A DNA stretch of 60,026 nt. Origin: a phage. The stretch is taken from the sequence record PV806339.1; one strand, given 5' to 3'. Below are positions 335 through 51,307 of the stretch, piece after piece. How positions within the stretch are numbered: position 1 is the stretch's first letter; the number at the start of each line of letters is the position of its first letter. Under the pieces are notes generated by a model that worked only from the letters and a program-made list of their open reading frames with translations, was not told the origin of the DNA and did not search any database. The translations under genes and the position numbers were made by a program.

Positions 335-1810
335 ATGCACGACTATCAGGACGAAGGCGTCCAGTTCATCAAAGACCATCCGTACTGCGGCATGTTCGTA
401 GACCTCGGCTTGGGTAAGACTGTCATGACCGGGACGGCCATGCTAGACCTGATCGCGGACGGCGAAATCAACAAAGTCCTCGTCGTCGCGCCGAAGCGAG
501 TGGCCCGTACCGGGTGGCCGACGGAATTCGACGAGTGGGGGCATCTGTGCTTCTACAAGATGTCGATTATCGCCGGAAACGCCAAAGAGCGCGCAGCGGC
601 CGCGAGTAAGGACTGTCACTTCTACACGATCAGCGTGGATAACATCGCGTGGCTATGTGAGCACTTCAAGACGAAATGGCCGTTCGACGCCGTGGTGCTG
701 GACGAGTCGAGCATGTTCAAATCCCACACCTCGCAGCGCTTCAAACTGCTGCGCCGGGTGCGGAAGTACATCAAACGGATCGTCGAGTTGACGGCCACGC
801 CTGCGGCCGAAGGGTACATGGGTATCTTCTCGCAAATTTACCTGCTGGACGAAGGCGAGCGCTTTGGCTCCACCATCGGCGGTTATCAGGAAAACTACTT
901 CACGCAGAACCGCTACAACTTCAAATGGAAACTTCGCCCCGGTGCGGAAGACGAGATTATTCGGAAGATTTCTGATATATGTTTAGTCATGAAAGCGGAA
1001 GACTACCTTGACATGCACGAACCGAATTTCGTTCCTGTCCCGGTCGAGTTAGACGGGGAGACGGCCGAGCGGTACCGCATGATGGAGGAAGAGAGCCTCG
1101 TCGAGATTATGCCGGACGATTTCGATGAACATCTGGATGACCCAATCGTGATCGAAGCGGAGCAGGCCGCGTCTTTGCAGTCGAAGCTATTGCAGATGTG
1201 CTCAGGCTTCATCTACGACACGAAAATCGTTGGCATAACGCAAGACGACAAGGTCATTAAGCAGAAGGACACGTACAGGCTGCACGACCTGAAATTCGAT
1301 GCACTGGAAGAACTACTGGAAACCACGCTGGCCGATAAAAACGTGCTGATCGCCTATCACTTCAAGCCGACCCTCGAACGACTGAAAGAGCGGTTTAAAG
1401 ATCTGGTGGTCATGGATGATGACGGTAAGTGCATCAAGAAGTGGAACGCCGGAAAGATTCGACTGCTGGCCGCGCACCCTCAGTCAGCGGGACACGGTTT
1501 AAACCTCCAGCATGGCGGCCACGTCATCGTCTACATCGACAATCCGTGGTCACTCGAACGCTTCCTGCAATTCAATGGCCGATTGCACCGTCAGGGGCAG
1601 AAGTACCCGGTTACGATCTACCAGTTCAAAGCCATGCTGCGAACACCGAACGGGCTTCTGGCCGAGACGGCGGACGACGTAGTCATACAGGCGCTGGTCG
1701 AAAAGGAAGACGTGCAGGACGCGTTCTTCGAACTGCTCGAACGTATCAAAGGGCGCATCAAACGCCGCAAGAAATCGAAAAATAAAGGGGTATGGGATGA
1801 CGAAGAGTAA
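335..1810 (+). CDS. SNF2-family DNA helicase (alternative start at 251)
   Basis: Q-motif region HDYQDEGVQF, P-loop GLGKT, DESS (DExx) box, C-terminal helicase motif GLNLQHGG; ends ...VWDDEE. Confidence 0.75.
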   Translation: MHDYQDEGVQFIKDHPYCGMFVDLGLGKTVMTGTAMLDLIADGEINKVLVVAPKRVARTGWPTEFDEWGHLCFYKMSIIAGNAKERAAAASKDCHFYTISVDNIAWLCEHFKTKWPFDAVVLDESSMFKSHTSQRFKLLRRVRKYIKRIVELTATPAAEGYMGIFSQIYLLDEGERFGSTIGGYQENYFTQNRYNFKWKLRPGAEDEIIRKISDICLVMKAEDYLDMHEPNFVPVPVELDGETAERYRMMEEESLVEIMPDDFDEHLDDPIVIEAEQAASLQSKLLQMCSGFIYDTKIVGITQDDKVIKQKDTYRLHDLKFDALEELLETTLADKNVLIAYHFKPTLERLKERFKDLVVMDDDGKCIKKWNAGKIRLLAAHPQSAGHGLNLQHGGHVIVYIDNPWSLERFLQFNGRLHRQGQKYPVTIYQFKAMLRTPNGLLAETADDVVIQALVEKEDVQDAFFELLERIKGRIKRRKKSKNKGVWDDEE

Positions 1811-2366
1811 TGCGCCACTGGCAACCCGGAATCGCCGCTCTAATGCGCCGGACGCCGATACCGAAGCGATGATCTTTCAGGGCTGCAACATCACGCAACT
1901 GGCGAAGCTGTTTCGCATGGAGCGCCGGGACATCACGCCGAAAATCATGGATGTCCCGCCTGTCGGCGAGCGTGGCGGGTACCCGATCTACGCGGTTCAC
2001 GAAGTGGCCCCGTACCTCGTTAAGCCGCTGTACGATGTCGAGACGTACCTGCGCCGCATGAATTTCAAGGATCTGCCGAAGGAGTTGTCGAAAGAGTTTT
2101 GGGCCGGGCAGCGTGCAAAGCAGGACTTCGACATCAAAGCGGGAAACCTGTGGGAAACCGAGAAGGTGATCGAGCACTTCGGCGAGGCGGTGAAGGTGCT
2201 GCGCATGTCGATGTTGCTCATTCCCGACACGCTGGCGCGTCAGGCCGGACTCAGCGAGCCGCAACGTCAGGTCATCACGTCATCCATTGACGCCATGCTG
2301 AACGACCTGTCGAGCGCGCTGATCGATAAGTTCAACGGCGACGAGGTGGATGACGATGAAGTTTAA
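1797..2366 (+). CDS. putative terminase small subunit (189 aa)
   Basis: Position directly upstream of and overlapping TerL; N-terminal HTH-like segment ITQLAKLF; C-terminus ...DEVDDDEV; call by synteny only. Confidence 0.45.
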   Translation: MTKSNAPLATRNRRSNAPDADTEAMIFQGCNITQLAKLFRMERRDITPKIMDVPPVGERGGYPIYAVHEVAPYLVKPLYDVETYLRRMNFKDLPKELSKEFWAGQRAKQDFDIKAGNLWETEKVIEHFGEAVKVLRMSMLLIPDTLARQAGLSEPQRQVITSSIDAMLNDLSSALIDKFNGDEVDDDEV

Positions 2367-4431
2367 GAGCATCGGGCAGATTATCAGTTCGGTGGCCGAG
2401 CAGTTACGGCCGCCAATGCGCATGACGGTGGCCGACGCGGCCGCCAAGTATCGCTACGTCAACCAACCCGGCGCATACGTCGGGGATTGGCTTAACTCGA
2501 CGACGCCGTACATGGTCGAGCCGATGAACATGATGAACAGCCGGGCGTACGACAAGATGGCCTTTGTCGGCCCGGCGCAGTCCGGTAAAACCGATGCGCT
2601 GATCCTGAATAGCATTGTCTATTCGGTGAAAGTTGACCCGATGGATCTGATGGTCTACTGCCCGACGTCAACGGCCGCGCGCGACTTCTCGATGCGACGT
2701 GTAGACCGTCTTCACCGCCATAGCCCGAAGGTGGGCGAAATGCTGATGAAGAACCGCGACGCCGACAACAAATTCGACAAACACTACGTCACAGGCATCA
2801 TCCTGACGTTGAGTTATCCGTCAGTAACCGAACTGGCCGGGCGTCCCGTTGGCCGCATCATCATCACCGACTACGACCGTATTGACGACGACATCGGTGG
2901 CGACGGTAACGCCTTCGACCTCGCATCAAAACGTACGACGACCTTCGGGTCGTTTGCCATGTGTGCAGCCGAGTCATCACCATCGCGCCCGATTAAAGAC
3001 CCAAGCTGGATTAAGCGCACGCCCCACGAAGCCCCGCCGTGTGACGGGATTGTCGGCCTGTACAACCGAGGCGACCGCCGCCGCTGGAAATGGCCGTGTC
3101 CGCATTGCGACCAGTATTTCGAAGGTACCTTCCAGCTTTTGAAGTGGAACACGAAAGACGCCGATGGCAACCCTCTAACCAACCTCGAAAAGTCGGAGAC
3201 AGTGCGCATGGCCTGTCCACACTGCGGCTGCGAAATAGACCCGGTTGATAAGTATGAAATGAACCTGTGGGGGATGTGGGTGCCGGAAGGCTGTCATGTC
3301 AACGAGTTGGGCCAACTGGCCGGGGTACCGATGCGCTCGTCGTTCGCGTCCTTCTGGCTTCGCGGAACGGCGGCCGCATTCATCACATGGCAGAAACTGG
3401 TTCTGAACTACCTCGATGCGATGGATGACTACGAGCGTACGATGTCCGAAGAGTCCTTGAAGAAATTCTGGAACAACGACATGGGCGAACCGTACGTGCC
3501 GAAGGCGATCGAGACGGTACGCGTTCCGGAAGCGCTGAAAGCCCGCGCCGAGAAGTGGCCGGAACAGACGGTGCCGAAGAATGTGCGGTTCTTGGCGGCC
3601 ACGGTGGACGTGCAGAAGCATAGCTTTGAAGTGTCGGTGCATGGCGTGGCCCCCGGCTACCCATTCGACACCTACCTGATCGACCGCTTCAACATCACGA
3701 AATCGCGCCGACTCGATGACGATGGCGACCCGAAAATCCTGCACCCGGGCGCGTACCTCGAAGATTGGGATCTCATTGAAACCGAAGTGATGAACAAGAC
3801 GTATCCGCTGTCCGATAATTCGGGCCGTTCGCTGCCGATCAAGATGACCGCGTGCGACTCCGGTGGTGAAGCCGGGGTAACGGGCAACGCGTACGAATTC
3901 TTCCGGAAACTGCGGAAGGAAGGGAAAACCGGGCGCTTCTGTCTGGTGAAGGGCGACCCGAAAGCGAACAACCCGCGCACCCGTGTAGCGCTACCGGACT
4001 CCAACCAGAAAGACAAGAAAGCCATCGCACGCGGCGACGTTCCGGTGCTGATGATTAACTCGAACGTGATGAAAGACAGCCTGAACGGCCGACTGGACGT
4101 CGTGGAGCCGGGCAAAGGCATGTACCACATCCCGGACTGGATGGGCGACGCGGTATTCGCCGAACTGTGTACGGAGACGCGTGACGAGAAAGGCTGGCAC
4201 AACCCATCCCACGCCCGAAACGAAACGTGGGACTTGGCATATTATTTATTGGGAATTTGCGTCAGTGGCCGCGTGCTCGGGATTGAGCAGATAGATTGGG
4301 ATAACCCGCCATCATGGGCGGCCGAGTGGGACGATAACAGCATGGTTATTTTACCGCAGAGCGATGAACCTATTGATGCACCGAAAGATACCGAATACAG
4401 TTTCGAGAAACTCGCAATGGCGTTAGCATAG
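2350..4431 (+). CDS. terminase large subunit, lambda GpA-like (693 aa)
   Basis: Walker A VGPAQSGKT; zinc-finger-like CPHCDQYF...CPHCGCEID; size and position match GpA-family terminases. Confidence 0.85.
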   Translation: MTMKFKSIGQIISSVAEQLRPPMRMTVADAAAKYRYVNQPGAYVGDWLNSTTPYMVEPMNMMNSRAYDKMAFVGPAQSGKTDALILNSIVYSVKVDPMDLMVYCPTSTAARDFSMRRVDRLHRHSPKVGEMLMKNRDADNKFDKHYVTGIILTLSYPSVTELAGRPVGRIIITDYDRIDDDIGGDGNAFDLASKRTTTFGSFAMCAAESSPSRPIKDPSWIKRTPHEAPPCDGIVGLYNRGDRRRWKWPCPHCDQYFEGTFQLLKWNTKDADGNPLTNLEKSETVRMACPHCGCEIDPVDKYEMNLWGMWVPEGCHVNELGQLAGVPMRSSFASFWLRGTAAAFITWQKLVLNYLDAMDDYERTMSEESLKKFWNNDMGEPYVPKAIETVRVPEALKARAEKWPEQTVPKNVRFLAATVDVQKHSFEVSVHGVAPGYPFDTYLIDRFNITKSRRLDDDGDPKILHPGAYLEDWDLIETEVMNKTYPLSDNSGRSLPIKMTACDSGGEAGVTGNAYEFFRKLRKEGKTGRFCLVKGDPKANNPRTRVALPDSNQKDKKAIARGDVPVLMINSNVMKDSLNGRLDVVEPGKGMYHIPDWMGDAVFAELCTETRDEKGWHNPSHARNETWDLAYYLLGICVSGRVLGIEQIDWDNPPSWAAEWDDNSMVILPQSDEPIDAPKDTEYSFEKLAMALA

Positions 4432-4696: not shown

Positions 4697-6372
4697 CCGA
4701 GAAAAAGAGAAGCACTACACAACGGGCGAAGAAAGCGGCAAAGACCGCCGACGTCGCTACGTTGGACGCCACGCCGCAGAATCCTTCGGCACTCGGTGGC
4801 GGCTTAGAGGGGGCTGAACGGAACACGCGTGAAATGTTCCGCTGGACGCCTGCCATCATTTCACCAGACCAGCAGATCGCCCAAGACGGTACGCTGGCGC
4901 TTTCGCGTGCGCAGGACATCGTACAGAACGATGGCTACGCATTTGGCGCGGTGGCGATTCACCGTGACAGCGTCGTCGGCTCGCAGTACAAACTCAACTC
5001 GAAACCGAATTCGCTGGTGCTCGGCGCGCCGGAAGGTTGGGCGGATGAATTTCAGGAGGTAGTCGAGGCGCGCTTCAACATGGTGGCCGAGTCTCCTGAA
5101 AACTGGTTCGATGCCCGCCGGATGAACACGCTGACCGGGCTTGTCCGTCTGGCCGTTGGCGGCTTCATCATGACCGGGGAAGTTCTGGCGTCATGCGAGT
5201 GGATGAAGCCGAAGGGAACCCGTATGCAGCGCCGTCCGTTCGGCACTGCGATCCAGATGATTTCGCCGTACCGTCTGTCCAACCCGGACAACATCATGGA
5301 CGACAAGTATCTGCGCTCCGGCGTCAAACTGGATGAAATGGGCGCTCCGATCGGCTACTGGCTGCGTAAAGCGTTCCCGGGCGACCCGACTGACCTCGAA
5401 CAATGGCGATGGGAATACCAGCCCGCTCGCTTCGATTGGGGCCGACGTCGGATGATCCACATCATCGAAGCGCTGCTGCCGGGCCAGACTCGCGGTATCA
5501 GTGAAATGGTCGCAGCGTTGAAGCAGATGAAGATGACCCGAAACTTTCAGGAAGTCACGCTGCAAAACGCCATCGTCAACGCGACCTACGCGGCCGCCAT
5601 CGAATCAGAATTGCCGTCTGACGTGGTCTTCAATCAGATGGGGATGGGACAGACGCCGTTCGGCGACATCCTGAAAACCTACATGGGGAGTCTGGCCGAG
5701 TACATCGCCGGATCGAAAAACATCGCAATCGACGGGGCGAAAATCCCGCACCTGTTCCCCGGTACGAAACTGAAAATGCAGCCCGCAGGAACGCCGGGCG
5801 GAGTCGGAACCGATTATGAAGAATCGTTGCTCAGGAACATCGCCGCATCACTCGGCCTTTCGTACGAGCAGTTCAGCCGCGACTATACGAAAACGAACTA
5901 CTCTTCTGCCCGCGCTTCGATGGCTGAAACGTGGAAGTACATGGAAAGCCGTAAAAAGCTGGTAGCCGACCGTTTCGCGTCGATGATTTATACGTTGTGG
6001 TTGGAAGAAGAGGTTAACGCTGGTAATGTTCCACTGCCGCCGGGCTTCACTTGGCGCGACTTCTACGACCCGATGAAACGTGACGCGCTTTGCAACGCAG
6101 AATGGATCGGCGCGAGTCGCGGCCAGATCGACGAGAAGAAAGAAACCGAAGCCGCTATCCTTCGCATCAAGAATGGCCTGTCAACGTACGAAGCAGAAAT
6201 CGCCCGCCTCGGTGGGGACTTCCGCGAAGTATTCAAACAGCGCGCCCGCGAAGAAGGCATCATCAAAGATTTGGGCCTTGATTTCTCCGGCAAGATGGTC
6301 GAAGGGACGGAGGCAAGCGGTTCAACTGGCAGCACTGGCTCGGACAACAACGAAGAGGATACGAAGGAATGA
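4693..6372 (+). CDS. portal protein, lambda gpB-like
   Basis: About 560 aa ORF; ATGA overlap with W stop; lambda synteny W-B-C-D-E. Confidence 0.8.
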   Translation: MTEKKRSTTQRAKKAAKTADVATLDATPQNPSALGGGLEGAERNTREMFRWTPAIISPDQQIAQDGTLALSRAQDIVQNDGYAFGAVAIHRDSVVGSQYKLNSKPNSLVLGAPEGWADEFQEVVEARFNMVAESPENWFDARRMNTLTGLVRLAVGGFIMTGEVLASCEWMKPKGTRMQRRPFGTAIQMISPYRLSNPDNIMDDKYLRSGVKLDEMGAPIGYWLRKAFPGDPTDLEQWRWEYQPARFDWGRRRMIHIIEALLPGQTRGISEMVAALKQMKMTRNFQEVTLQNAIVNATYAAAIESELPSDVVFNQMGMGQTPFGDILKTYMGSLAEYIAGSKNIAIDGAKIPHLFPGTKLKMQPAGTPGGVGTDYEESLLRNIAASLGLSYEQFSRDYTKTNYSSARASMAETWKYMESRKKLVADRFASMIYTLWLEEEVNAGNVPLPPGFTWRDFYDPMKRDALCNAEWIGASRGQIDEKKETEAAILRIKNGLSTYEAEIARLGGDFREVFKQRAREEGIIKDLGLDFSGKMVEGTEASGSTGSTGSDNNEEDTKE

Positions 6373-29185: not shown

Positions 29186-31381
29186 GTGGCTGATGAAGAC
29201 GTAGGTATCAGCGCGGCCAAGTTGGTCGGCGAAGCCTTGCAGTGGAATGGCGAGAAGCCCAAACTCACATACCTGTCCCGGTGTGTAGGGGAAGCGTTAG
29301 CCATTTCCGCATTGAACATGGACGCGGCGAAAAACTTCGGGGAGGTTTTGCAGTGGGACGGTAAATTGCCGTCCATCTTCCGCGCCTCCAGACTGGTCGG
29401 CGAAGTGCTGGCGATTCAAAAGATGGAGATCCGCGCATCGTCAATGATTTGCGAAGCGCTGGTCAAAGAGCCGCAATTTATGGCGGCCGAAATGATCTGC
29501 GAGGCTATCGGTCAGGCGGCCACGGAACGGCCACCGCTTTACGCAGATGCGGTGTATGAGTATGTCACGCAGCACGACGTCGTACCGCCTTTGTCGGAAG
29601 TCATTTCTCCGGAAAGTCTGTACACGTTGTGGAATTACGCCATTGTCCAGCGGCCGATCGATGACCCGATTTCCTACAACATCGTGAAGCAGGCGGTGAC
29701 GCTGTCCGTTCTGGCGTCGCCTATCGTGACCATTTCGTACGACAAGGTGAAGACCGCGTGGTCGTATGCTGTGGTGTCCGCGACGCTCGGTGACTTCCCG
29801 CTGCCGGATGAAATGTGGTCGAAGATCAGCACGAAGCAGGTCTGGAATCTGGTATTGCAGTCGATCGACATCCCGTACGTCCCGACGTCTGGTGTGTTCG
29901 TTCGTCATGAATCGACGCTGGTGGTTCAGGCCCATCCGCTGCCGATGTACACGACGCCTGCGTCCGTGAAGTCGAACGCGGTTCTGGCCGCGCAGAAGCG
30001 CCCGGTTGAACGACTCCCGCGCTCAATGACTCGCGTGGCGCAGGGATTATCGCAGGCCGTTACCGCGCTGCCGATCCCGATGCCACGGTCTGACGTGTTC
30101 GCCGCGCAGATGCTGTCACAGGCTGTAATCCCGGCCGACTTCGTTGACCCGACTGTCGGCGTCGAGCACGCGGCCGCAGTGACGTCGTACGCCGTTTGCG
30201 AGTATCAGGTGTCGCTTCCTATCAGTTACACGCGCGCGAAGTCCCTGACGCCGCTGGTGCTGCAATTTAGCGATAACCAACGAGTCATTCCGCTGTCCAC
30301 GATGCGCACCAAACATGTTTCGTCTCAGTTCTTGGTCAAGTCTGACTTGCTCCCGGTGCTGTCCACGATGCGCACCGAACATGTTTCGTCTCAGTTCTTG
30401 GTCAAGTCTGACTTGCTCCCGGTGCTGTCTCGGACGCGCGTTAAACAGGTACGCGGCTATGCAGTGCGGGCGGAAGAGTACACGCCTCCGATTAACCTGC
30501 TGGTGTGGTCGCGCGCTGACGCTGTTCGCATGTCGGTGGTGCAGCAGGCAACGGACTACCCTGACCCGGGAATCCCTACAACGTCGGCCATCGTCAGCGC
30601 GGCCACGGCGTACCACGTCATGAAAGCGCTGGACTACGAAGATCCGAACGACATGTGGGAGGCGAGCAAGGTTCAGATCGTGCCGCAGTTCTTAGAGAAG
30701 GTGGTGAAAGCCCAACCGCTGCGGCTCCCGATCTCGTACGCTCCGCTGGCGCAATTTGTTGAACTGGTGACGCGGTACCAGTACATGCCGCCTCCGGGCG
30801 AAGTCGCCGAGTCCGGTATCCATGTTCGTCAGGTGATGCAGCCAGTGGCGTTCCGCGCGACGTACCCTGACCCGACTGTCCCGGTATCCCACCTGACGGT
30901 CAATCAGGTGCTGGAGCACATCGCGATCCCGGCCGACTATCCGGACGTCCACCTGCCGACGTCGGACGCGATTGTAAATCAGGTATTGGAACACGTTGCG
31001 CAGATTGACGATTTCCCTGATCCCGGTACCATGTTCCGGCCGCTTATTGTCAGCCAGATCATTCAGCAGGCGGCACAGGATGCGTCTTACCCGGATTGGA
31101 GCACACTGCATAAACCGCTTGCGGTTCAGCAGGTAATTCAGCATGTATCAATGACGGCGGAATACCCTGACAAGGACGTCCCGCAATCATTTGCAAAAGT
31201 GTCTCAAGTTTTGCAGCACTATGCCGATAAAGCTAATTACCCAGACAAAGATGCTCCCCAATCCACGCTACGAGTCCGTCAGGTACTTGAGCAGGTAATG
31301 ATGCGCGACAAGTCGATGTACGAAATGCCGCAGCCACCACGGAAACATCGGGTGCAAATCACTTGCCGCTTTGTGTACTGA
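29186..31381 (+). CDS. repeat-rich fibre-like protein (731 aa; GTG start)
   Basis: RBS AAGGGGG; periodic ~24-aa repeats (YPDxxxPxSxxxVxQVLxHV...) and a 22-aa exact tandem duplication. Confidence 0.55.
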   Translation: MADEDVGISAAKLVGEALQWNGEKPKLTYLSRCVGEALAISALNMDAAKNFGEVLQWDGKLPSIFRASRLVGEVLAIQKMEIRASSMICEALVKEPQFMAAEMICEAIGQAATERPPLYADAVYEYVTQHDVVPPLSEVISPESLYTLWNYAIVQRPIDDPISYNIVKQAVTLSVLASPIVTISYDKVKTAWSYAVVSATLGDFPLPDEMWSKISTKQVWNLVLQSIDIPYVPTSGVFVRHESTLVVQAHPLPMYTTPASVKSNAVLAAQKRPVERLPRSMTRVAQGLSQAVTALPIPMPRSDVFAAQMLSQAVIPADFVDPTVGVEHAAAVTSYAVCEYQVSLPISYTRAKSLTPLVLQFSDNQRVIPLSTMRTKHVSSQFLVKSDLLPVLSTMRTEHVSSQFLVKSDLLPVLSRTRVKQVRGYAVRAEEYTPPINLLVWSRADAVRMSVVQQATDYPDPGIPTTSAIVSAATAYHVMKALDYEDPNDMWEASKVQIVPQFLEKVVKAQPLRLPISYAPLAQFVELVTRYQYMPPPGEVAESGIHVRQVMQPVAFRATYPDPTVPVSHLTVNQVLEHIAIPADYPDVHLPTSDAIVNQVLEHVAQIDDFPDPGTMFRPLIVSQIIQQAAQDASYPDWSTLHKPLAVQQVIQHVSMTAEYPDKDVPQSFAKVSQVLQHYADKANYPDKDAPQSTLRVRQVLEQVMMRDKSMYEMPQPPRKHRVQITCRFVY
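30293..30424 (+). repeat. 66-bp tandem direct repeat, 2 copies, 65/66 identical, inside fibre-like CDS
   Basis: Copy 1 30293-30358, copy 2 30359-30424; single a/g difference at 30311 vs 30377. Confidence 0.9.
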
Positions 31382-31402
31382 CAATTGACGGGTTAATATT
31401 CT

Positions 31403-31428
31403 TAGCGGGCTTGTCCCGCTAATTTTTT
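31403..31428 (+). terminator. Rho-independent terminator after fibre genes
   Basis: Stem TAGCGGG / CCCGCTA followed by ATTTTTT. Confidence 0.6.
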
Positions 31429-31443
31429 GTGAGGAAGCACCCA

Positions 31444-31782
31444 ATGAGCGAAATGGAACGGGAACGGCCGGGGGATAACTCCGGCGGCATCAAGTTAGAC
31501 TTGTCTGTCAATCTCCCCACGATTCTGACGATGGCTTCGATGCTGGTGGCGGCGGTACTGTACGTCAACAACCGCTTCGCCGACCTATCAAACCAGAACA
31601 CGCAGACGGACACCCGGCTTACCAACGTCGAGAAACGTCAGGACTCCACTGACGCGGCGTTCACGGTTCTCCGGGCCGAAACCGTCTCGCAAAACTCCGC
31701 CCTTCGTTCAGACCTTCGCGCCGACATGCGCGACCTGAAACAAAGCGTGGATACCCTATCTTCCCAAATGATGAGGAAATAA
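31444..31782 (+). CDS. putative holin (single TM, about 112 aa)
   Basis: RBS GAGGAAG; one TM LPTILTMASMLVAAVLYV; first gene of lysis cassette. Confidence 0.4.
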   Translation: MSEMERERPGDNSGGIKLDLSVNLPTILTMASMLVAAVLYVNNRFADLSNQNTQTDTRLTNVEKRQDSTDAAFTVLRAETVSQNSALRSDLRADMRDLKQSVDTLSSQMMRK

Positions 31783-31785
31783 CCG

Positions 31786-32499
31786 ATGGCTAAACAGAAG
31801 CCGCGCGGGATTCGCAATAACAACCCGGGCAACATCGAGTGGGGGTCGCCGTGGCAAGGGCTGATCCCGCGCAGTGAAGCGACGGACAGCCGCTTCGCAC
31901 AGTTCAAAGACCCGGCATCCGGCATCCGCGCCATTGCCGTCACTCTGACCACCTACTACGACAAGCGCAAAGCGAATGACGGTAGCAAAATCGACTCGGT
32001 GCGAGAAGTTATCGAGCGGTGGGCACCCGCCGTTGAGAACAACGTATCGGCCTACGCTAAACAGGTTGCCGCCGTTCTGGCCGTTGACCCGAATAGCGAA
32101 ACGCTGAACCTCCACGACTACGACACCATGCGCGGTCTGGTGGAAGGCATCATCCGCCACGAAAACGGGAACCCGGAAGCGTTCGGCCTGACGTCGTACA
32201 GCAACGCGAATACGTGGTACTCGGACGAAGTGATCGAGGAAGGTCTGCGCCGGGCGGGCATCGTTAAGGCGGCCAAGCCTGTTAACCGTACCACCGTGGC
32301 CGCGACAAGCGTGGCAGGACTCGGCGCGGCGCAACTGGTTGACATGGTACAGCCCGTCAAGGCTGCGATGGACAGCGCCCACGGTGATATTTCTTCCGGT
32401 GATTGGGTACGCATCGCATTCGGCGCGGCCACAATCGCGATTGGCCTGTACATGGGATGGGTCGCGTACCGGAAGCATCGGGCCGGGGCCGCTGCATGA
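31786..32499 (+). CDS. putative endolysin with C-terminal transmembrane helix (237 aa)
   Basis: Position between holin-like and spanin genes; N-terminal RGIRNNNPGNIEWG motif; C-terminal TM WVRIAFGAATIAIGLYMGWVAY; enzyme family not verified. Confidence 0.4.
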   Translation: MAKQKPRGIRNNNPGNIEWGSPWQGLIPRSEATDSRFAQFKDPASGIRAIAVTLTTYYDKRKANDGSKIDSVREVIERWAPAVENNVSAYAKQVAAVLAVDPNSETLNLHDYDTMRGLVEGIIRHENGNPEAFGLTSYSNANTWYSDEVIEEGLRRAGIVKAAKPVNRTTVAATSVAGLGAAQLVDMVQPVKAAMDSAHGDISSGDWVRIAFGAATIAIGLYMGWVAYRKHRAGAAA

Positions 32500-32750
32500 C
32501 GGGGCTACTCGCCCGGATTAAGACGGGCGTCCTTGCGGCGCTCGTTTTCGTTGTGGCCCTCTTCGGCGTCTGGCGGGCAGGACGCACGAAGGGCAAACAG
32601 GATCAGATTAATAACCAGAACAATGACACGTTGCGGGAACAGGCAAACGCGGATAAAAATGTGGCCGAGGTGCATAATGAAATCAATAAACTCCCTGATG
32701 GTGGCGCTAACGATCTGCTTCGCCGTAAGTGGATGCGTCGAAAGGATTAA
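32496..32750 (+). CDS. i-spanin (Rz-like), N-terminal TM (84 aa)
   Basis: ATGA overlap with previous gene; TM GVLAALVFVVALFGVW followed by charged/coiled region. Confidence 0.5.
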   Translation: MTGLLARIKTGVLAALVFVVALFGVWRAGRTKGKQDQINNQNNDTLREQANADKNVAEVHNEINKLPDGGANDLLRRKWMRRKD

Positions 32751-32880
32751 CCCTGCGCCGTCTTTCTGTTCTGTCGCGCGCGCCATCTACATCGGTGAGG
32801 AAGACGTGCTGACAGATGAAACCGCACGGCAGATCGCCACCCACGATGAAATCGGCGAACGGCTATGCGGCTGGAAATAG
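32677..32880 (+). CDS. o-spanin (Rz1-like) outer-membrane lipoprotein, overlapping i-spanin in +1 frame
   Basis: Signal peptide with lipobox MKSINSLMVALTICFAVSG-C; starts inside i-spanin gene and extends beyond it. Confidence 0.55.
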   Translation: MKSINSLMVALTICFAVSGCVERINPAPSFCSVARAIYIGEEDVLTDETARQIATHDEIGERLCGWK

Positions 32881-33342
32881 TTAAATGGTCGGGTGGGTGA
32901 TAACCACCGTACGTTCACCCTCGATTGTCTGGTGGTACCGCAGTGAGGACACCAGATGATCGAGGTTATTGAAGACCGGGATATTCAGCCGCTTCGCCTC
33001 TTCCACCTCCGCGCGGGTACCTGAACTGCGCATCGCGTCTTCACCAATCAGCAGAACCGCGTCACAGCGGCGCATCAATTCCATCGTGCATTCCAGCCAA
33101 TATTCATCCGGTATCTCGCCCTCGGTCTTGTACTCGAAGTTGGCCGTGTTCAGGTGCGGCGTGACCGGGAACATCTTGTGGACGTAGAGTTGATCGACAA
33201 CCGACACGGCCGTCTCTTCGGCTTTCAGGATGTTGACCTTCGTCGGAACGGTGCAGCCAGAACCGATGATGTACGGGCGGTACGGCCCGGCCAGATAGAT
33301 CATGACGGGCTTGGCCGCCGGGTTACACATATTCACGTTCAT
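32881..33342 (-). CDS. nucleoside 2-deoxyribosyltransferase-like protein (153 aa)
   Basis: IYLAGPY N-terminal motif and CDAVLLIGEDAMRSSGTRAEVEEAKRLNIPVF C-terminal region typical of NDT/DUF4406-like fold. Confidence 0.45.
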   Translation of the reverse strand: MNVNMCNPAAKPVMIYLAGPYRPYIIGSGCTVPTKVNILKAEETAVSVVDQLYVHKMFPVTPHLNTANFEYKTEGEIPDEYWLECTMELMRRCDAVLLIGEDAMRSSGTRAEVEEAKRLNIPVFNNLDHLVSSLRYHQTIEGERTVVITHPTI

Positions 33343-33623
33343 ATTAAGCCTCGGTTATATTCGTCCACGTATTTTTCATTTTCAGGAGATCGGTCTACCT
33401 GATTAATCTCGCTGAACTCGCAGGAAATAATATCCCCGCTAGGCAGGCGCACCCGCCAAAAAATATCCTCTTCACGCGGCCCGGTGCGTTCCCATTCGAG
33501 CACGGTTCCGTAGTATTTATGCCCGTTGAATCGGTCAGTGAAATGCACGGAGTCGCCTTTAATCGGCCAGCCCGGTTTTATCTTGGCACGGTATTTCCGT
33601 TTTATAGCCTCAACGTCGATCAT
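33339..33623 (-). CDS. hypothetical protein (94 aa)
   Basis: ORF overlapping neighbours in - strand operon. Confidence 0.45.
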   Translation of the reverse strand: MIDVEAIKRKYRAKIKPGWPIKGDSVHFTDRFNGHKYYGTVLEWERTGPREEDIFWRVRLPSGDIISCEFSEINQVDRSPENEKYVDEYNRGLI

Positions 33624-34519
33624 ACTTCATCGTCCTCGAAGTCTTCGTCAAAAAGGTCAGACTGGAACGGCTCACATGATGATGTGCAGCCATCGCCGTC
33701 GTCCGGGTTAGTGCGGGTCAGGTACAGCAGGCGCTGGCGGTCTTCCAGTCCGGCGTCGGCCATAAGCTGATCCGTGTTTCGTTTGCCACGGAACCATGTG
33801 TGGCCGTCTTCCGCTTTAACGTGGCCGTACTGGATTTCCATGTCGCGGTTCCACGTAAACCATTCAGGGTGTTCGTGGGCTATCAGGTACAGCTTTGCAT
33901 TGCTCTTTTTAAAGCAGGTCAGGCAGTTCCCGTAATGCGGCGGGATGTTCAGTTTGAACGGCATGGCATCCCAATAATCGTTCACGTCCTGCTTATCGAA
34001 ACTCCCCCAATGGCAAAGGGGGTACACCAGATTGAATTTCTTGGCCGACGCTTTGTTCGGGTCAGCCCGCTCCGGCTCGTCCGACCGCATTCCGATGGCC
34101 GTCTTGGCACTCCACCCCCGGCGCGCAAGACCATTGCTGCGCATCCAGTGGCGAATCGTCTGCGTTTTCAGATAGTCGCTGCACTTCTGGCGCGATATGT
34201 TCGGGATGCCCTCGACGCTGATCAGGCTTTCAAACGGTTCGCCCTTCCGTGCGGCCGTCTCGAAACTGACGACCCGGTGGCGCATCCCGACACCGTGTTC
34301 CGGACTGGCGTAGCCCTCCAGCCACACCAGATTCAGGCCGAAGTGTTTATCCACCTTGTCGGCGAATATCAGTGTTTCTTCGTGCTCCCGGCCAGTATTG
34401 GCGAACACGAAACGCAGGTCATATTTGTGGCCGTAATTCTCGATCAGGTATGCACAAAGAAAGCCGGACGACTGGCCGCCGGAAAAGCTGACGACAAGCG
34501 GCTCTTTGTTAGTTGGCAT
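33620..34519 (-). CDS. PAPS-reductase-like PP-loop protein (about 299 aa from Met at 34519; ORF extends to 34603)
   Basis: PP-loop VVSFSGGQSS; C-terminal Cys cluster CLTCF...GDGCTSSC; ATG at 34519 after upstream stop; ends ...FEDDEV. Confidence 0.55.
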   Translation of the reverse strand: MPTNKEPLVVSFSGGQSSGFLCAYLIENYGHKYDLRFVFANTGREHEETLIFADKVDKHFGLNLVWLEGYASPEHGVGMRHRVVSFETAARKGEPFESLISVEGIPNISRQKCSDYLKTQTIRHWMRSNGLARRGWSAKTAIGMRSDEPERADPNKASAKKFNLVYPLCHWGSFDKQDVNDYWDAMPFKLNIPPHYGNCLTCFKKSNAKLYLIAHEHPEWFTWNRDMEIQYGHVKAEDGHTWFRGKRNTDQLMADAGLEDRQRLLYLTRTNPDDGDGCTSSCEPFQSDLFDEDFEDDEV

Positions 34520-35222
34520 CGGTTGAATCCTCGCATAATGGTATGAAGTCCTTCGGGCCGTCGCCTGAACCGGGGAAGCGCCGGAAGACCATTTCGTCTT
34601 CAATGGTCAGTTTATCCTTGCTGTTCCCGCGACGATAGAAGTCGGCCATGCCGCTGCCGTACGTGCGGTCAATCCCGGCACCATACGGATCTTGCGGGCA
34701 AAGTTCCAGCGCCAGCACTTCTCGCCAGTCCGGCCGATCGATGCGGCTGACGATGCGATGGTTATTCGACACCCGGCAGTACCCCGAGGCTATCAGCGTT
34801 TCCACCAGCCGGGCCTGTTCCTTGCCACGCATCGTTTTCGCGCGCTTGACGTCCTCTTTCCTTGCCCGGGCGAAATACTCCCGCGAGAAGCGGCTACCGA
34901 CGTTCTCCGCGAAGATGCGCAGGTCTTTGATGACCATGCCCCATTTCCGTCGGCTACCTTCTTCCACGTATCGAATGGCCCCGGCGTAGCGCAGCAGCAT
35001 TGCATCGGTCAGGCGGGCATTCTTCGGGTCTTTGGCCTTCCACCAGCCGTACACTTCCACCATGCGGGCCATCGCCTTGTCGCTGTACCATAGCTCGGCG
35101 TGGCTGGTGGGCGAGTATTCCGGGTAACACTTCGCTCCGCCGTCAAACGCCCGGTAGCAGTACCAGATCCCGCCGCTGTACTGGAAGTGCGGTATCTTGT
35201 GTCGCTCTTTCATCGTAGCCAT
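34509..35222 (-). CDS. hypothetical protein (237 aa)
   Basis: ORF directly upstream of PAPS-reductase-like gene. Confidence 0.5.
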   Translation of the reverse strand: MATMKERHKIPHFQYSGGIWYCYRAFDGGAKCYPEYSPTSHAELWYSDKAMARMVEVYGWWKAKDPKNARLTDAMLLRYAGAIRYVEEGSRRKWGMVIKDLRIFAENVGSRFSREYFARARKEDVKRAKTMRGKEQARLVETLIASGYCRVSNNHRIVSRIDRPDWREVLALELCPQDPYGAGIDRTYGSGMADFYRRGNSKDKLTIEDEMVFRRFPGSGDGPKDFIPLCEDSTDAN

Positions 35223-50846: not shown

Positions 50847-51307
50847 TGGTGTGCGGCTGTATATGGCTATCTATTCCCCTTTCTATGGTATCCCCTGCTA
50901 TATGGTGTGACGGGGCGTTATTGTATGCCCTTATTTCGGCCGCTATGGGGGCTAGGCGGGGCGATCGTGGTGTAAGGTATGCCTACCTATTACGATCTAT
51001 CTTGCGAGGCGTGGCGGGCGGCTGAGAAAGAATTACGGTCACGATTTCAAAAAGGTACTTACCCGCCAGTCGGTCGGCCCGGGGGTGCGCAGAGCCGCTT
51101 TCTCGGAAAATGGGCCGGATCTGCCATAGCCCCGCTTTGCGAAATCAATAACTTAGCCGAAAAACCGAATTTCTCCCGTAGGGAGTCTCCAAATCGCGGT
51201 GGTGACGGGGGTGCGGGCGGAACGGCGCTTTAGCCCCGCAATCGGTTGATTGTATTACTGTTTTACCCGGTGGGCGGGTGCTGACCAAGTCCACGGCAGC
51301 AGTATCA

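What the first reader, a model, noticed from the sequence alone, without database searches (positions are those of the whole stretch)
31444..32880. Lysis cassette with a C-terminally membrane-anchored endolysin candidate and overlapped spanins
Order is holin-like (1 TM), a 237-aa protein with an N-terminal RGIRNNNPGNIEWG domain and a C-terminal TM helix, an i-spanin with N-terminal TM, and an o-spanin lipoprotein (lipobox AVSG-C) starting inside the i-spanin gene in the +1 frame. A C-terminal rather than N-terminal (SAR) membrane anchor on an endolysin is unusual and may indicate a different release mechanism; alternatively the 237-aa protein is not the endolysin.
Basis: partly seen in the sequence, partly recalled or inferred. 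Interest (0 to 1): 0.45.

Follow-up and report, generated by a model that had tools for sequence, protein, structure and literature searches.

The report
Chi-phage lysis cassette, membrane-anchored endolysin
This is the four-gene cell-bursting module of a Chi-like Salmonella phage, and its odd wall-degrading enzyme with a membrane anchor at the tail end is real but already published (M4Lys of phage BSPM4, Enc34 endolysin); how it crosses the membrane is still unsolved.

Summary
The window is a circularly permuted whole genome of a Chi-like Salmonella siphophage (Chivirus, Casjensviridae). Positions 31444-32880 hold four + strand genes:
- g1: 112 aa, one N-terminal TM helix followed by a coiled-coil tail.
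- g2: 237 aa.
- g3: an 84-aa i-spanin.
- g4: a 67-aa o-spanin lipoprotein, lipobox VSG|C, +1 frame, 74-nt overlap with g3.

g2 is 234/237 identical to M4Lys of phage BSPM4. It matches the Enc34 endolysin crystal structure 7Q47 at E=2e-73, and the AF2 model gives TM 0.91. The catalytic residues W79/Y90/E126 are conserved.

Published experiments on those orthologues show four things. The N-terminal domain degrades peptidoglycan. The full-length protein lyses E. coli alone, insensitive to azide. The C-terminal membrane domain is required. The g1 orthologue, 100% identical here, is neither lytic nor needed.

The feature is already known (Siskin 2019, M4Lys 2020, Enc34 2022, spanins 2018).

My additions:
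- A charge pattern conserved across 45 homologues favours an N-in/C-in hairpin.
- The same catalytic domain is a free soluble endolysin in Seurat and 9g.
- The endolysin-spanin block travels with different upstream partners.

The parts
31402..31432 (+). Terminator-like hairpin (8-bp stem, 5 GC pairs) plus T-run, between the upstream 731-aa virion gene and the lysis cassette
   Evidence: Annotated as a terminator at the same place in Siskin and Season12.
31444..31782 (+). g1: 112-aa membrane protein (acidic N-terminus, TM at about 20-40, roughly 70-aa coiled-coil-like C-terminal domain). Called 'lysis protein B' or putative holin; its function is unproven.
   Evidence: 100% identical to BSPM4 ORF_37. 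phrog_7686, E=6e-58. Homologues sit upstream of the endolysin in Redjacvirus, Lavrentievavirus and Maxdohrnvirus.
31786..32499 (+). g2: M4Lys/Enc34-type endolysin, 237 aa
   Evidence: 234/237 identical to M4Lys. E=2e-73 to PDB 7Q47. phrog_873 'endolysin', E=1e-82.
31786..32265 (+). g2 catalytic domain (aa 1-160), all-helical lysozyme-like PHA02564 fold. Catalytic Glu126 is the codon at 32161-32163; Trp79 and Tyr90 are also conserved.
   Evidence: AF2 pLDDT above 90 over about 40-160. Foldseek to 7Q47: TM 0.91, E=1e-19. W79/Y90/E126 are invariant in 8 and in 45 homologues and correspond to Enc34 W79/Y95/E131 (PMC8943055).
32290..32349 (+). g2 proximal weakly hydrophobic helix H1 (aa 169-188; Ala/Gly/Ser/Thr-rich; conserved Q183 and D/E186), preceded by the cationic linker RRAGIVKAAKPVNR
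   Evidence: Predicted by TMHMM only, according to PMC7143992 and PMC6498227.
32350..32403 (+). g2 acidic inter-helix loop (aa 189-206) carrying the conserved GD-I-S-S-G-D motif (S204 and G205 invariant)
32404..32496 (+). g2 distal TM helix H2 (aa 207-228, G213 invariant) plus the cationic tail RKHRAGAAA. This is the part whose 13-aa truncation abolishes lysis in M4Lys.
   Evidence: PMC7143992 Fig. 5.
32496..32750 (+). g3: i-spanin, 84 aa. N-terminal TM at about 8-26, then two short predicted helices separated by PDGG, ending in a basic C-terminus with a conserved W-x-R motif.
   Evidence: phrog_1026, E=1e-23. Alignment of 6 diverged homologues. Listed as the 'Chi' i-spanin family in PMC6139136.
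32677..32880 (+). g4: o-spanin lipoprotein, 67 aa. Lipobox VSG|C20 at 32725-32736. The mature form is 48 aa with conserved Cys31 and Cys64 and an acidic C-half ending in CGWK. +1 frame, 74-nt overlap with g3.
   Evidence: phrog_1275, E=4e-24. G19/C20/C31/C64/W66 invariant in 5 lineages. Homologous ORFs found unannotated in Pseudomonas and Aeromonas phages. 'Chi' o-spanin family in PMC6139136.

Best explanation
Positions 31444-32880 are the late lysis cassette of a Chi-like phage.

Shown by sequence or structure comparison here, plus published experiments on orthologues:
- g2 is the orthologue of M4Lys and Enc34 ORF39.
- It has an N-terminal all-helical, lysozyme-like glycosidase domain with catalytic Glu126, assisted by Trp79 and Tyr90. 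This domain cleaves peptidoglycan.
- A cationic linker joins that domain to a C-terminal membrane module: weak helix H1, an acidic loop, TM helix H2 and a basic tail.
- In the 99%-identical M4Lys, the soluble domain degrades murein. The full-length protein alone lyses E. coli within 20-60 min, insensitive to azide. Removing the last 13 residues abolishes lysis. The module alone is bacteriostatic.

Inferred here:
- The module inserts as an N-in/C-in hairpin, so the enzyme accumulates tethered to the cytoplasmic face of the inner membrane.
- At a critical concentration the module itself compromises the membrane, much as a holin does, and this gives its own catalytic domain access to the wall.
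- g1 is an accessory timer or regulator rather than the obligatory holin.
- g3 (inner membrane) and g4 (outer-membrane lipoprotein) form a two-component spanin. It bridges the periplasm through charge-complementary C-termini and disrupts the outer membrane once the wall is gone.
For: Identity of g2:
- 99% identical to M4Lys.
- E=2e-73 to 7Q47.
- AF2 model against 7Q47: TM 0.91.
- Catalytic residues invariant.
- phrog_873, annotated endolysin.

Published function: PMC7143992 and PMC8943055.

Topology inference from 45 homologues of 53-82% identity:
- The pre-H1 linker carries 3 to 7 Lys/Arg (4-6 in most).
- The H1-H2 loop is net negative.
- The tail carries +2 to +4 positive charges.
- This is the positive-inside signature of an N-in/C-in hairpin.
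- All 120 best database homologues keep this architecture.
- Siskin's authors reached the same prediction with TMHMM.

The anchor is an add-on module: the same catalytic domain is a 145-aa soluble endolysin next to an ordinary multi-TM holin candidate and an Rz-like gene in Seurat and 9g.

g1 is dispensable or variable:
- BSPM4 ORF_37, 100% identical, is not toxic, is not required, and does not rescue the TMD-less enzyme.
- SSU5 has an unrelated upstream protein with a C-terminal TM helix.
- Aeromonas phage 4_4512 has no such gene on the same strand.
- The endolysin / i-spanin / o-spanin block itself is constant.

Spanins.
Against: - H1 is only marginally hydrophobic (KD about 0.8-1.5) and carries conserved Q183 and D/E186.
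- AF2 models the whole module at low confidence (pLDDT 40-67) and places the helix at 182-199 rather than 169-188. The hairpin is therefore not established.
- The M4Lys authors' predictors (Phobius, Phyre2) gave a single span with the N-terminus outside.
- The module has no detectable similarity to any holin family in Pfam or PHROGs, nor to the S21 pinholin.
- Self-lysis was seen only under T7-promoter overexpression and may not reflect infection.
- An in-trans test (domain plus module as separate proteins) is listed among the M4Lys constructs, but no result is reported.
- Azide insensitivity is only a weak test of Sec independence.
Confidence: 0.85

Rival explanations
1. Reverse-SAR model. 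Only H2 spans the membrane (N-out/C-in). The catalytic domain is exported to the periplasm by a Sec-independent route and held inactive at the membrane surface. g1 acts as a pinholin whose depolarisation releases or activates the enzyme, as with SAR endolysins.
For: - Phobius and Phyre2 predict this topology for M4Lys.
- The basic tail after H2 fits a C-in orientation.
- H1 and H2 are rich in Ala/Gly, as SAR domains are.
- Holin-independent lysis on overexpression is also seen with SAR endolysins, and the Enc34 authors raise this possibility.
Against: - It needs translocation of about 206 N-terminal residues with no signal peptide, past a conserved linker of 3 to 7 Lys/Arg. No known pathway does this.
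- No N-terminal hydrophobic segment is present.
- ORF_37 alone has minimal effect on growth, whereas a pinholin should arrest growth.
- g1 is absent or replaced in SSU5 and in Aeromonas 4_4512.
Confidence: 0.2
2. g1 is the genuine holin during infection, possibly a new single-TM class as the Siskin authors proposed, and controls when g2 acts. The holin-independent lysis of M4Lys would then be an overexpression artefact.
For: - Its position is canonical: first gene of the cassette, just upstream of the endolysin.
- It is small, with one TM helix and a charged C-terminus, and has two nearby Met codons (M1, M4).
- It is conserved across four Casjensviridae genera.
- Co-expression slightly delays M4Lys lysis, which suggests an interaction.
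Against: - The identical protein is not toxic when induced and does not release the soluble TMD-less enzyme.
- It is not universally linked to this endolysin type.
- It has no match to a holin family. PHROGs and NCBIfam see only weak Rz/LysB-like resemblance, with TIGR03495 at E=0.013, far below cutoff.
Confidence: 0.35
3. g2 is a virion-associated (ejection-stage) peptidoglycan hydrolase rather than the endolysin, and another gene provides lysis from within.
For: - The catalytic domain family was named 'virion protein V / P5' (PHA02564).
- It occurs at the N-terminus of internal virion and tail proteins in T7-like and other phages and of 9VVP Gp29.
- Some GenBank records call g2 'structural protein'.
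Against: - g2 sits between the holin-like gene and the spanins.
- It carries a membrane anchor.
- The 99%-identical protein lyses cells from within.
- No other endolysin is present in the genome (also stated for Enc34).
Confidence: 0.02

Closest known systems
M4Lys (ORF_38, 'lysis protein A') of Salmonella phage BSPM4, KY620117 (Bai, Lee & Ryu 2020, PMC7143992)
   Same: Same length (237 aa) and 234/237 identical, with an identical C-terminal module. The upstream ORF_37 is 100% identical to g1, and the cassette is the same.
   Different: Three substitutions only (S30N, T106M, S137P). The BSPM4 record lacks the i-spanin call and annotates an antisense ORF in its place.
Enc34 ORF39 endolysin, PDB 7Q47 (Cernooka et al. 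2022, PMC8943055)
   Same: Same fold and catalytic residues, about 70% identity over the catalytic domain. Same domain-plus-C-terminal-two-helix architecture and same four-gene cassette with overlapped spanins.
   Different: Enc34 has a 5-residue insertion after the W79-A-P motif, so its residue numbering is shifted by 5. The host is different (Hafnia).
Siskin gp38 and the Siskin lysis cassette (O'Leary et al. 2019, PMC6498227)
   Same: 99.2% nucleotide identity over the cassette. This was the first report of the C-terminal TMD endolysin and of the single-TM holin candidate.
   Different: None of substance.
SAR endolysins (P1 Lyz, phage 21 R21)
   Same: Membrane-tethered muralytic enzymes with a Gly/Ala-rich, weakly hydrophobic helix. 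They lyse without a canonical holin when overexpressed.
   Different: The SAR domain is N-terminal and exported by Sec. Here the N-terminus has no hydrophobic segment, the anchor is C-terminal, and lysis is azide-insensitive. This protein is not a member of that family.
Soluble PHA02564 endolysins of Seurat and 9g (Queuovirinae)
   Same: Homologous catalytic domain (46-50% identity), with the same invariant residues.
   Different: About 145 aa with no membrane module. They are paired with a separate multi-TM holin candidate and a full-size (about 158-166 aa) Rz-like gene.
Class II holins / pinholin S21-68 (two TMDs, N-in/C-in, SAR-like TMD1, basic tail)
   Same: The inferred layout of the g2 C-terminal module is analogous, and the module alone is bacteriostatic in M4Lys.
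   Different: No sequence similarity. Here the module is fused to an enzyme. Hole formation has not been shown.
Two-component spanins, overlapped architecture (P2 LysB/LysC; 'Chi' families in Kongari et al. 2018, PMC6139136)
   Same: N-terminal-TM i-spanin plus an overlapped +1-frame lipoprotein o-spanin with periplasmic cysteines.
   Different: The i-spanin is very short: 84 aa with about 58 periplasmic residues, against 153 aa for lambda Rz.

Membership tests
Enc34/M4Lys-type (PHA02564) endolysin with C-terminal TMD | Sequence homology of the N-terminal domain to Enc34 ORF39 and M4Lys | tested here: met
   E=2e-73 to 7Q47. 234/237 identical to M4Lys. phrog_873, E=1e-82.
Enc34/M4Lys-type (PHA02564) endolysin with C-terminal TMD | Catalytic Glu (Enc34 E131) plus Trp79 and Tyr95 | tested here: met
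   E126, W79 and Y90 are present and invariant in the 8- and 45-sequence alignments.
Enc34/M4Lys-type (PHA02564) endolysin with C-terminal TMD | All-helical lysozyme-alpha-lobe-like fold | tested here: met
   AF2 pLDDT above 90 over the domain. Foldseek to 7Q47_B: TM 0.91, rmsd 2.3 A.
Enc34/M4Lys-type (PHA02564) endolysin with C-terminal TMD | C-terminal transmembrane module with a basic tail and no N-terminal signal | tested here: met
   Hydropathy analysis. Conserved in 120/120 top homologues.
Enc34/M4Lys-type (PHA02564) endolysin with C-terminal TMD | Muralytic activity and TMD-dependent lysis from within | not testable with these tools
   Shown experimentally for the 99%-identical M4Lys and for Enc34 ORF39 (PMC7143992, PMC8943055).
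SAR endolysin | N-terminal signal-anchor-release helix | tested here: not met
   No window with KD above 1.0 in residues 1-168.
Two-component spanin, overlapped class | i-spanin with a single N-terminal TMD and a helical periplasmic domain | tested here: met
   TM at 8-26, KD 2.19. phrog_1026. Conserved across 6 lineages.
Two-component spanin, overlapped class | o-spanin with a lipobox and a non-Asp +2 residue; its gene starts inside the i-spanin gene out of frame and extends beyond it | tested here: met
   VSG|C20 followed by V. Offset of 181 nt (+1 frame), with a 74-nt overlap. The lipobox Cys and two further Cys are invariant.
Two-component spanin, overlapped class | Outer-membrane disruption required for lysis | not testable with these tools
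   Catalogued bioinformatically as the 'Chi' spanin families (PMC6139136). I found no functional test.
Holin (for g1) | Small phage membrane protein with at least one TMD and a charged C-terminus, encoded next to the endolysin | tested here: met
Holin (for g1) | Lethal membrane-hole formation that releases or activates the endolysin | not testable with these tools
   The published test on the 100%-identical ORF_37 was negative: minimal growth effect, and no lysis when combined with the TMD-less enzyme. There is no significant hit to any holin family; phrog_25947 'hol-like chemotaxis' appears only at E=0.045.

The most novel reading that the evidence does not exclude
The C-terminal module of g2 is a built-in holin. 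On this reading, Chi-type endolysins are natural holin-endolysin fusions. They sit N-in/C-in on the cytoplasmic face and open the membrane for their own catalytic domain. g1 would then be not a holin but an antiholin-like timer acting on the fusion protein. That would be a lysis logic distinct from both the canonical holin-endolysin pathway and the pinholin-SAR pathway.
Probability: 0.3. Interest if true: 0.55.

Novelty: already known. Interest (0 to 1): 0.2.

Why it matters
The sequence feature adds no new knowledge. The cassette, the C-terminally anchored endolysin, its activity, its crystal structure and the spanin families are all published, and M4Lys is already used as a synthetic lysis gene.

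What still matters is the open mechanistic question. No known pathway moves a 160-residue N-terminal domain across the inner membrane using a C-terminal anchor, yet this enzyme lyses cells alone. Resolving its topology and the role of g1 would define a third route of endolysin delivery in Gram-negative hosts.

The block is widespread. It occurs in Casjensviridae, in SSU5/pHCM2-type phage-plasmids of Salmonella, Cronobacter and Klebsiella, and in Aeromonas and Pseudomonas phages.

Tried and rejected
- Pfam and NCBIfam gave no significant hit for g2, g3 or g4. g1 gave only sub-threshold coiled-coil noise and a weak LysB-like hit.
- I searched the C-terminal module alone for relatives. In phage genomes (tblastn) it turned up almost only under genes annotated as lysis protein A or endolysin. 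Against Pfam and PHROGs holin families, only its own phrog_873 scored.
- A tblastn piece suggested that the gene downstream of the Seurat-type endolysin might be homologous to the module. Direct comparison found no alignment.
- I tested whether g1 is a paralogue of the i-spanin g3 by profile-profile comparison. It is not.
- I compared the module with the S21 pinholin, using a sequence recalled from memory. There was no similarity.
- AF2 on the full-length protein was intended to settle hairpin against single span. The module came out at pLDDT 40-67, so this was inconclusive.
- I looked for a second endolysin in the window, using tblastn with the g2 domain and with T4 E, lambda R and T7 amidase sequences from memory. 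Nothing scored below E=0.08, so this was a weak test. The Siskin whole-genome annotation likewise shows none.
- A literature search for M4Lys and PHA02564 found no later mechanistic study.
Full report
**1. What the window is.** The region 31300-33000 is 99.0-99.5% identical at the nucleotide level to many Chi-like Salmonella siphophages (KNP6, PMBT21, Siskin, Season12 and others; genus Chivirus, family Casjensviridae). The Chi/Siskin cohesive-end sequence GGTGCGCAGAGC occurs once, at 51084 (PMC6498227). The 60-kb window is therefore a circularly permuted complete Chi-like genome.

**2. Checking the observation.**
- g1, 31444-31782, 112 aa.
- g2, 31786-32499, 237 aa.
- g3, 32496-32750, 84 aa. 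Its ATG overlaps the g2 stop codon as ATGA.
- g4, 32677-32880, 67 aa. It starts 181 nt into g3, which is the +1 frame, shares 74 nt with g3 and runs 130 nt beyond it.

A terminator-like hairpin at 31402-31422 separates the cassette from the upstream 731-aa virion gene.

Hydropathy analysis gives the following.
- g1 has one TM segment at about residues 20-40.
- g2 has no hydrophobic segment in residues 1-168. It has a weak one at 169-188 (KD 1.2-1.3, 55% Ala/Gly/Ser/Thr) and a clear one at 207-228, followed by RKHRAGAAA.
- g3 has a strong N-terminal TM helix at 8-26.
- g4 has a signal sequence ending in the lipobox V-S-G-C20.

The RGIRNNNPGNIEWG motif lies at g2 residues 7-20. The only refinement is that the anchor may be two helices rather than one.

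**3. What g2 is.** Pfam and NCBIfam have no model for it. PHROGs places it in phrog_873 'endolysin' at E=1e-82, with weaker hits to virion-associated lytic domains. [quoted passage not shown]

It is 234/237 identical to ORF_38 (M4Lys) of Salmonella phage BSPM4, and g1 is 112/112 identical to BSPM4 ORF_37. An AlphaFold2 model built on 45 homologues is confident over the catalytic domain (pLDDT above 90) and superposes on 7Q47 with TM 0.91. The residues identified as catalytically important in Enc34 (Trp79, Tyr95, Glu131) correspond to W79, Y90 and E126 here. All three are invariant in both of my alignments.

**4. What is already published.**
- O'Leary et al. 2019 (PMC6498227) noted for Siskin a putative endolysin with two C-terminal TMDs (N-in, C-in) and a single-TM holin candidate, and proposed new classes for both.
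- Bai, Lee and Ryu 2020 (PMC7143992) studied M4Lys directly.
  - M4Lys alone lyses E. coli 20-60 min after induction.
  - 1-10 mM azide delays lysis but does not block it.
  - M4Lys 1-206 is soluble, non-toxic and degrades purified peptidoglycan. LC-MS shows loss of GlcNAc, read as glycosidase activity, with a possible endopeptidase signal.
  - Residues 158-237 alone are bacteriostatic.
  - Deleting 13 C-terminal residues abolishes lysis.
  - ORF_37 alone does nothing. It is not needed, slightly delays lysis when co-expressed, and does not rescue the TMD-less enzyme.
- Cernooka et al. 2022 (PMC8943055) solved the Enc34 catalytic domain. They measured its muralytic activity and described the same four-gene cassette with overlapped spanins. 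They stated that no known mechanism explains translocation of the domain.
- Kongari et al. 2018 (PMC6139136) already list 'Chi' i-spanin and o-spanin families of the overlapped class.

Searches for M4Lys and PHA02564 found no later mechanistic work. The finding is therefore real, correctly interpreted, and already known.

**5. No alternative endolysin.** The fully annotated Siskin genome has a single endolysin. The window contains no second copy of the g2 domain and nothing resembling T4 E, lambda R or T7 amidase (a weak test). The Enc34 authors reached the same conclusion for their phage.

**6. Comparative anatomy (my additions).**

(a) The catalytic domain is modular. In Seurat and 9g (Queuovirinae) it is a free endolysin of about 145 aa with no membrane segment. 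Seurat pairs it with a downstream multi-TM holin candidate and a full-size Rz-like gene. 9g pairs it with an Rz-like gene upstream and an annotated holin downstream. In T7-like Kayfunaviruses, D3112-like Pseudomonas phages, PM2 and others it is the N-terminus of virion proteins.

(b) The C-terminal module, searched on its own, turned up almost only under genes annotated as lysis protein A or endolysin. I confirmed the fusion to this catalytic domain in every locus I examined: Chivirus, Redjacvirus, Lavrentievavirus, Maxdohrnvirus, SSU5-type phage-plasmids and Aeromonas phage 4_4512. All 120 best hits in the 5.8-billion-protein search keep the full architecture at 229-289 aa. The module resembles no holin family.

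(c) Across 45 homologues of 53-82% identity the charge layout is constant. The linker before H1 carries 3 to 7 Lys/Arg (4-6 in most), the H1-H2 loop is net acidic with an invariant S-G in the motif (D/H)-(I/L)-(S/T)-S-G-(D/S/N), and the tail carries +2 to +4. By the positive-inside rule (von Heijne; established knowledge) this favours an N-in/C-in hairpin with the enzyme on the cytoplasmic side.

(d) The block g2-g3-g4 is constant, but the upstream partner is not.
- g1-type proteins occur in four Casjensviridae genera.
- SSU5 has an unrelated protein with a C-terminal TM helix.
- Aeromonas 4_4512 has no such gene on the same strand.

(e) g3 and g4 are conserved as a pair.
- In g3 the TM helix and a C-terminal L...W-x-R motif are conserved (L75, W79 and R81 invariant).
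- In g4 the lipobox Cys, two further Cys, and a D-x-x-T...H...G...C-x-W core are invariant.
- The basic C-terminus of g3 (LLRRKWMRRKD) and the acidic C-half of g4 (GEEDVLTDETARQIATHDEIGERL) are charge-complementary. This fits the C-terminal i/o-spanin contact known from lambda Rz-Rz1 (an inference).

**7. Mechanism.**

Shown for the near-identical orthologue:
- The domain hydrolyses murein.
- The membrane module is necessary for lysis from within.
- Neither g1 nor azide-sensitive SecA function is required.

Inferred:
- The enzyme accumulates tethered to the cytoplasmic face through an N-in/C-in hairpin.
- The module is bacteriostatic on its own. At high density it compromises the bilayer so that its attached domain reaches the wall.
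- g1 tunes the timing.
- The g3/g4 spanin then removes the outer membrane.

The weak points of this model:
- H1 is marginal as a TM helix.
- AF2 does not resolve the module.
- The M4Lys authors' predictors favoured a single N-out span.
- All functional data come from T7-driven overexpression in E. coli.

The main rival is a reverse-SAR model with a periplasmic tethered enzyme and g1 as pinholin. It has to explain export of about 206 residues past a strongly basic linker without a signal, and the harmlessness of g1.

**8. Verdict.** Novelty is 'already known'. The residual interest lies only in the unsolved translocation mechanism and the true role of g1, which this sequence does not advance beyond the published orthologues.

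Noticed in passing
window 30292-30429 (inside ORF 29186-31381): A 66-bp tandem duplication (2.1 copies, 98% match) adds 22 aa (VSSQFLVKSDLLPVLS...) to the 731-aa repeat-rich virion protein just upstream of the cassette. The gene is 2196 nt here and in Siskin but 2130 nt in BSPM4, Season12 and sal3, so this looks like a length polymorphism.
   Followed up: partly
window 51084-51095: The Chi/Siskin cos overhang sequence GGTGCGCAGAGC occurs once, so the window is a circularly permuted complete Chi-like genome rather than a fragment opened at cos.
   Followed up: partly
L004 (BSPM4) 5026-5307; L003 (sal3); L005 (RefSeq Siskin): Public annotation of this cassette is inconsistent. BSPM4 annotates an antisense ORF over the i-spanin. 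sal3 calls g1 'putative endolysin 2'. RefSeq Siskin labels g1, g3 and g4 all 'Rz-like spanin' (phrog_7686 carries that label for g1). Other records call g2 'structural protein', 'virion protein' or 'putative phosphoesterase'.
   Followed up: partly
hits H1, H88, H100, H77: Records named 'Listeria phage LM 4-14-1' and 'Staphylococcus phage SA1' carry the Chi-type g2 at 99-100% protein identity (the Listeria record also at 99.5% nucleotide identity over the cassette), and 'Serratia phage KpYy 1 41' carries the C-terminal module at 100%. 'Staphylococcus phage SVV09-A' carries a Proteus-phage-like version at 54%. These are probably contaminated or host-misattributed entries.
   Followed up: no
L011 (SSU5) 1730-3174; P0091 'HCM2.0049c'; P0055-P0100 on ~110-kb contigs: The same endolysin / mini-i-spanin / o-spanin block is carried by SSU5/pHCM2-type phage-plasmids of Salmonella, Cronobacter and Klebsiella. 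There the upstream small protein is different, with its TM helix at the C-terminus.
   Followed up: partly
window 32881-34603, minus strand: Immediately downstream, and convergent with the cassette, lie a nucleoside 2-deoxyribosyltransferase-like gene (153 aa), a 94-aa ORF and a 327-aa PAPS-reductase-like ORF. This segment differs in gene content between Chi-like phages. Siskin has different ORFs here, and Season12 has a 299-aa PAPS-reductase-like gene.
   Followed up: no
PMC7143992 Table 1: The M4Lys paper lists a construct co-expressing the TMD-less enzyme and the module in trans (M4LysdeltaTMD-TMD), but no result is reported for it. That experiment would discriminate holin-like from cis-only action.
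   Followed up: yes
window 31756-32478, minus strand: A 240-aa antisense ORF spans almost all of g2. It has no family support and is most likely a GC-rich shadow ORF.
   Followed up: no
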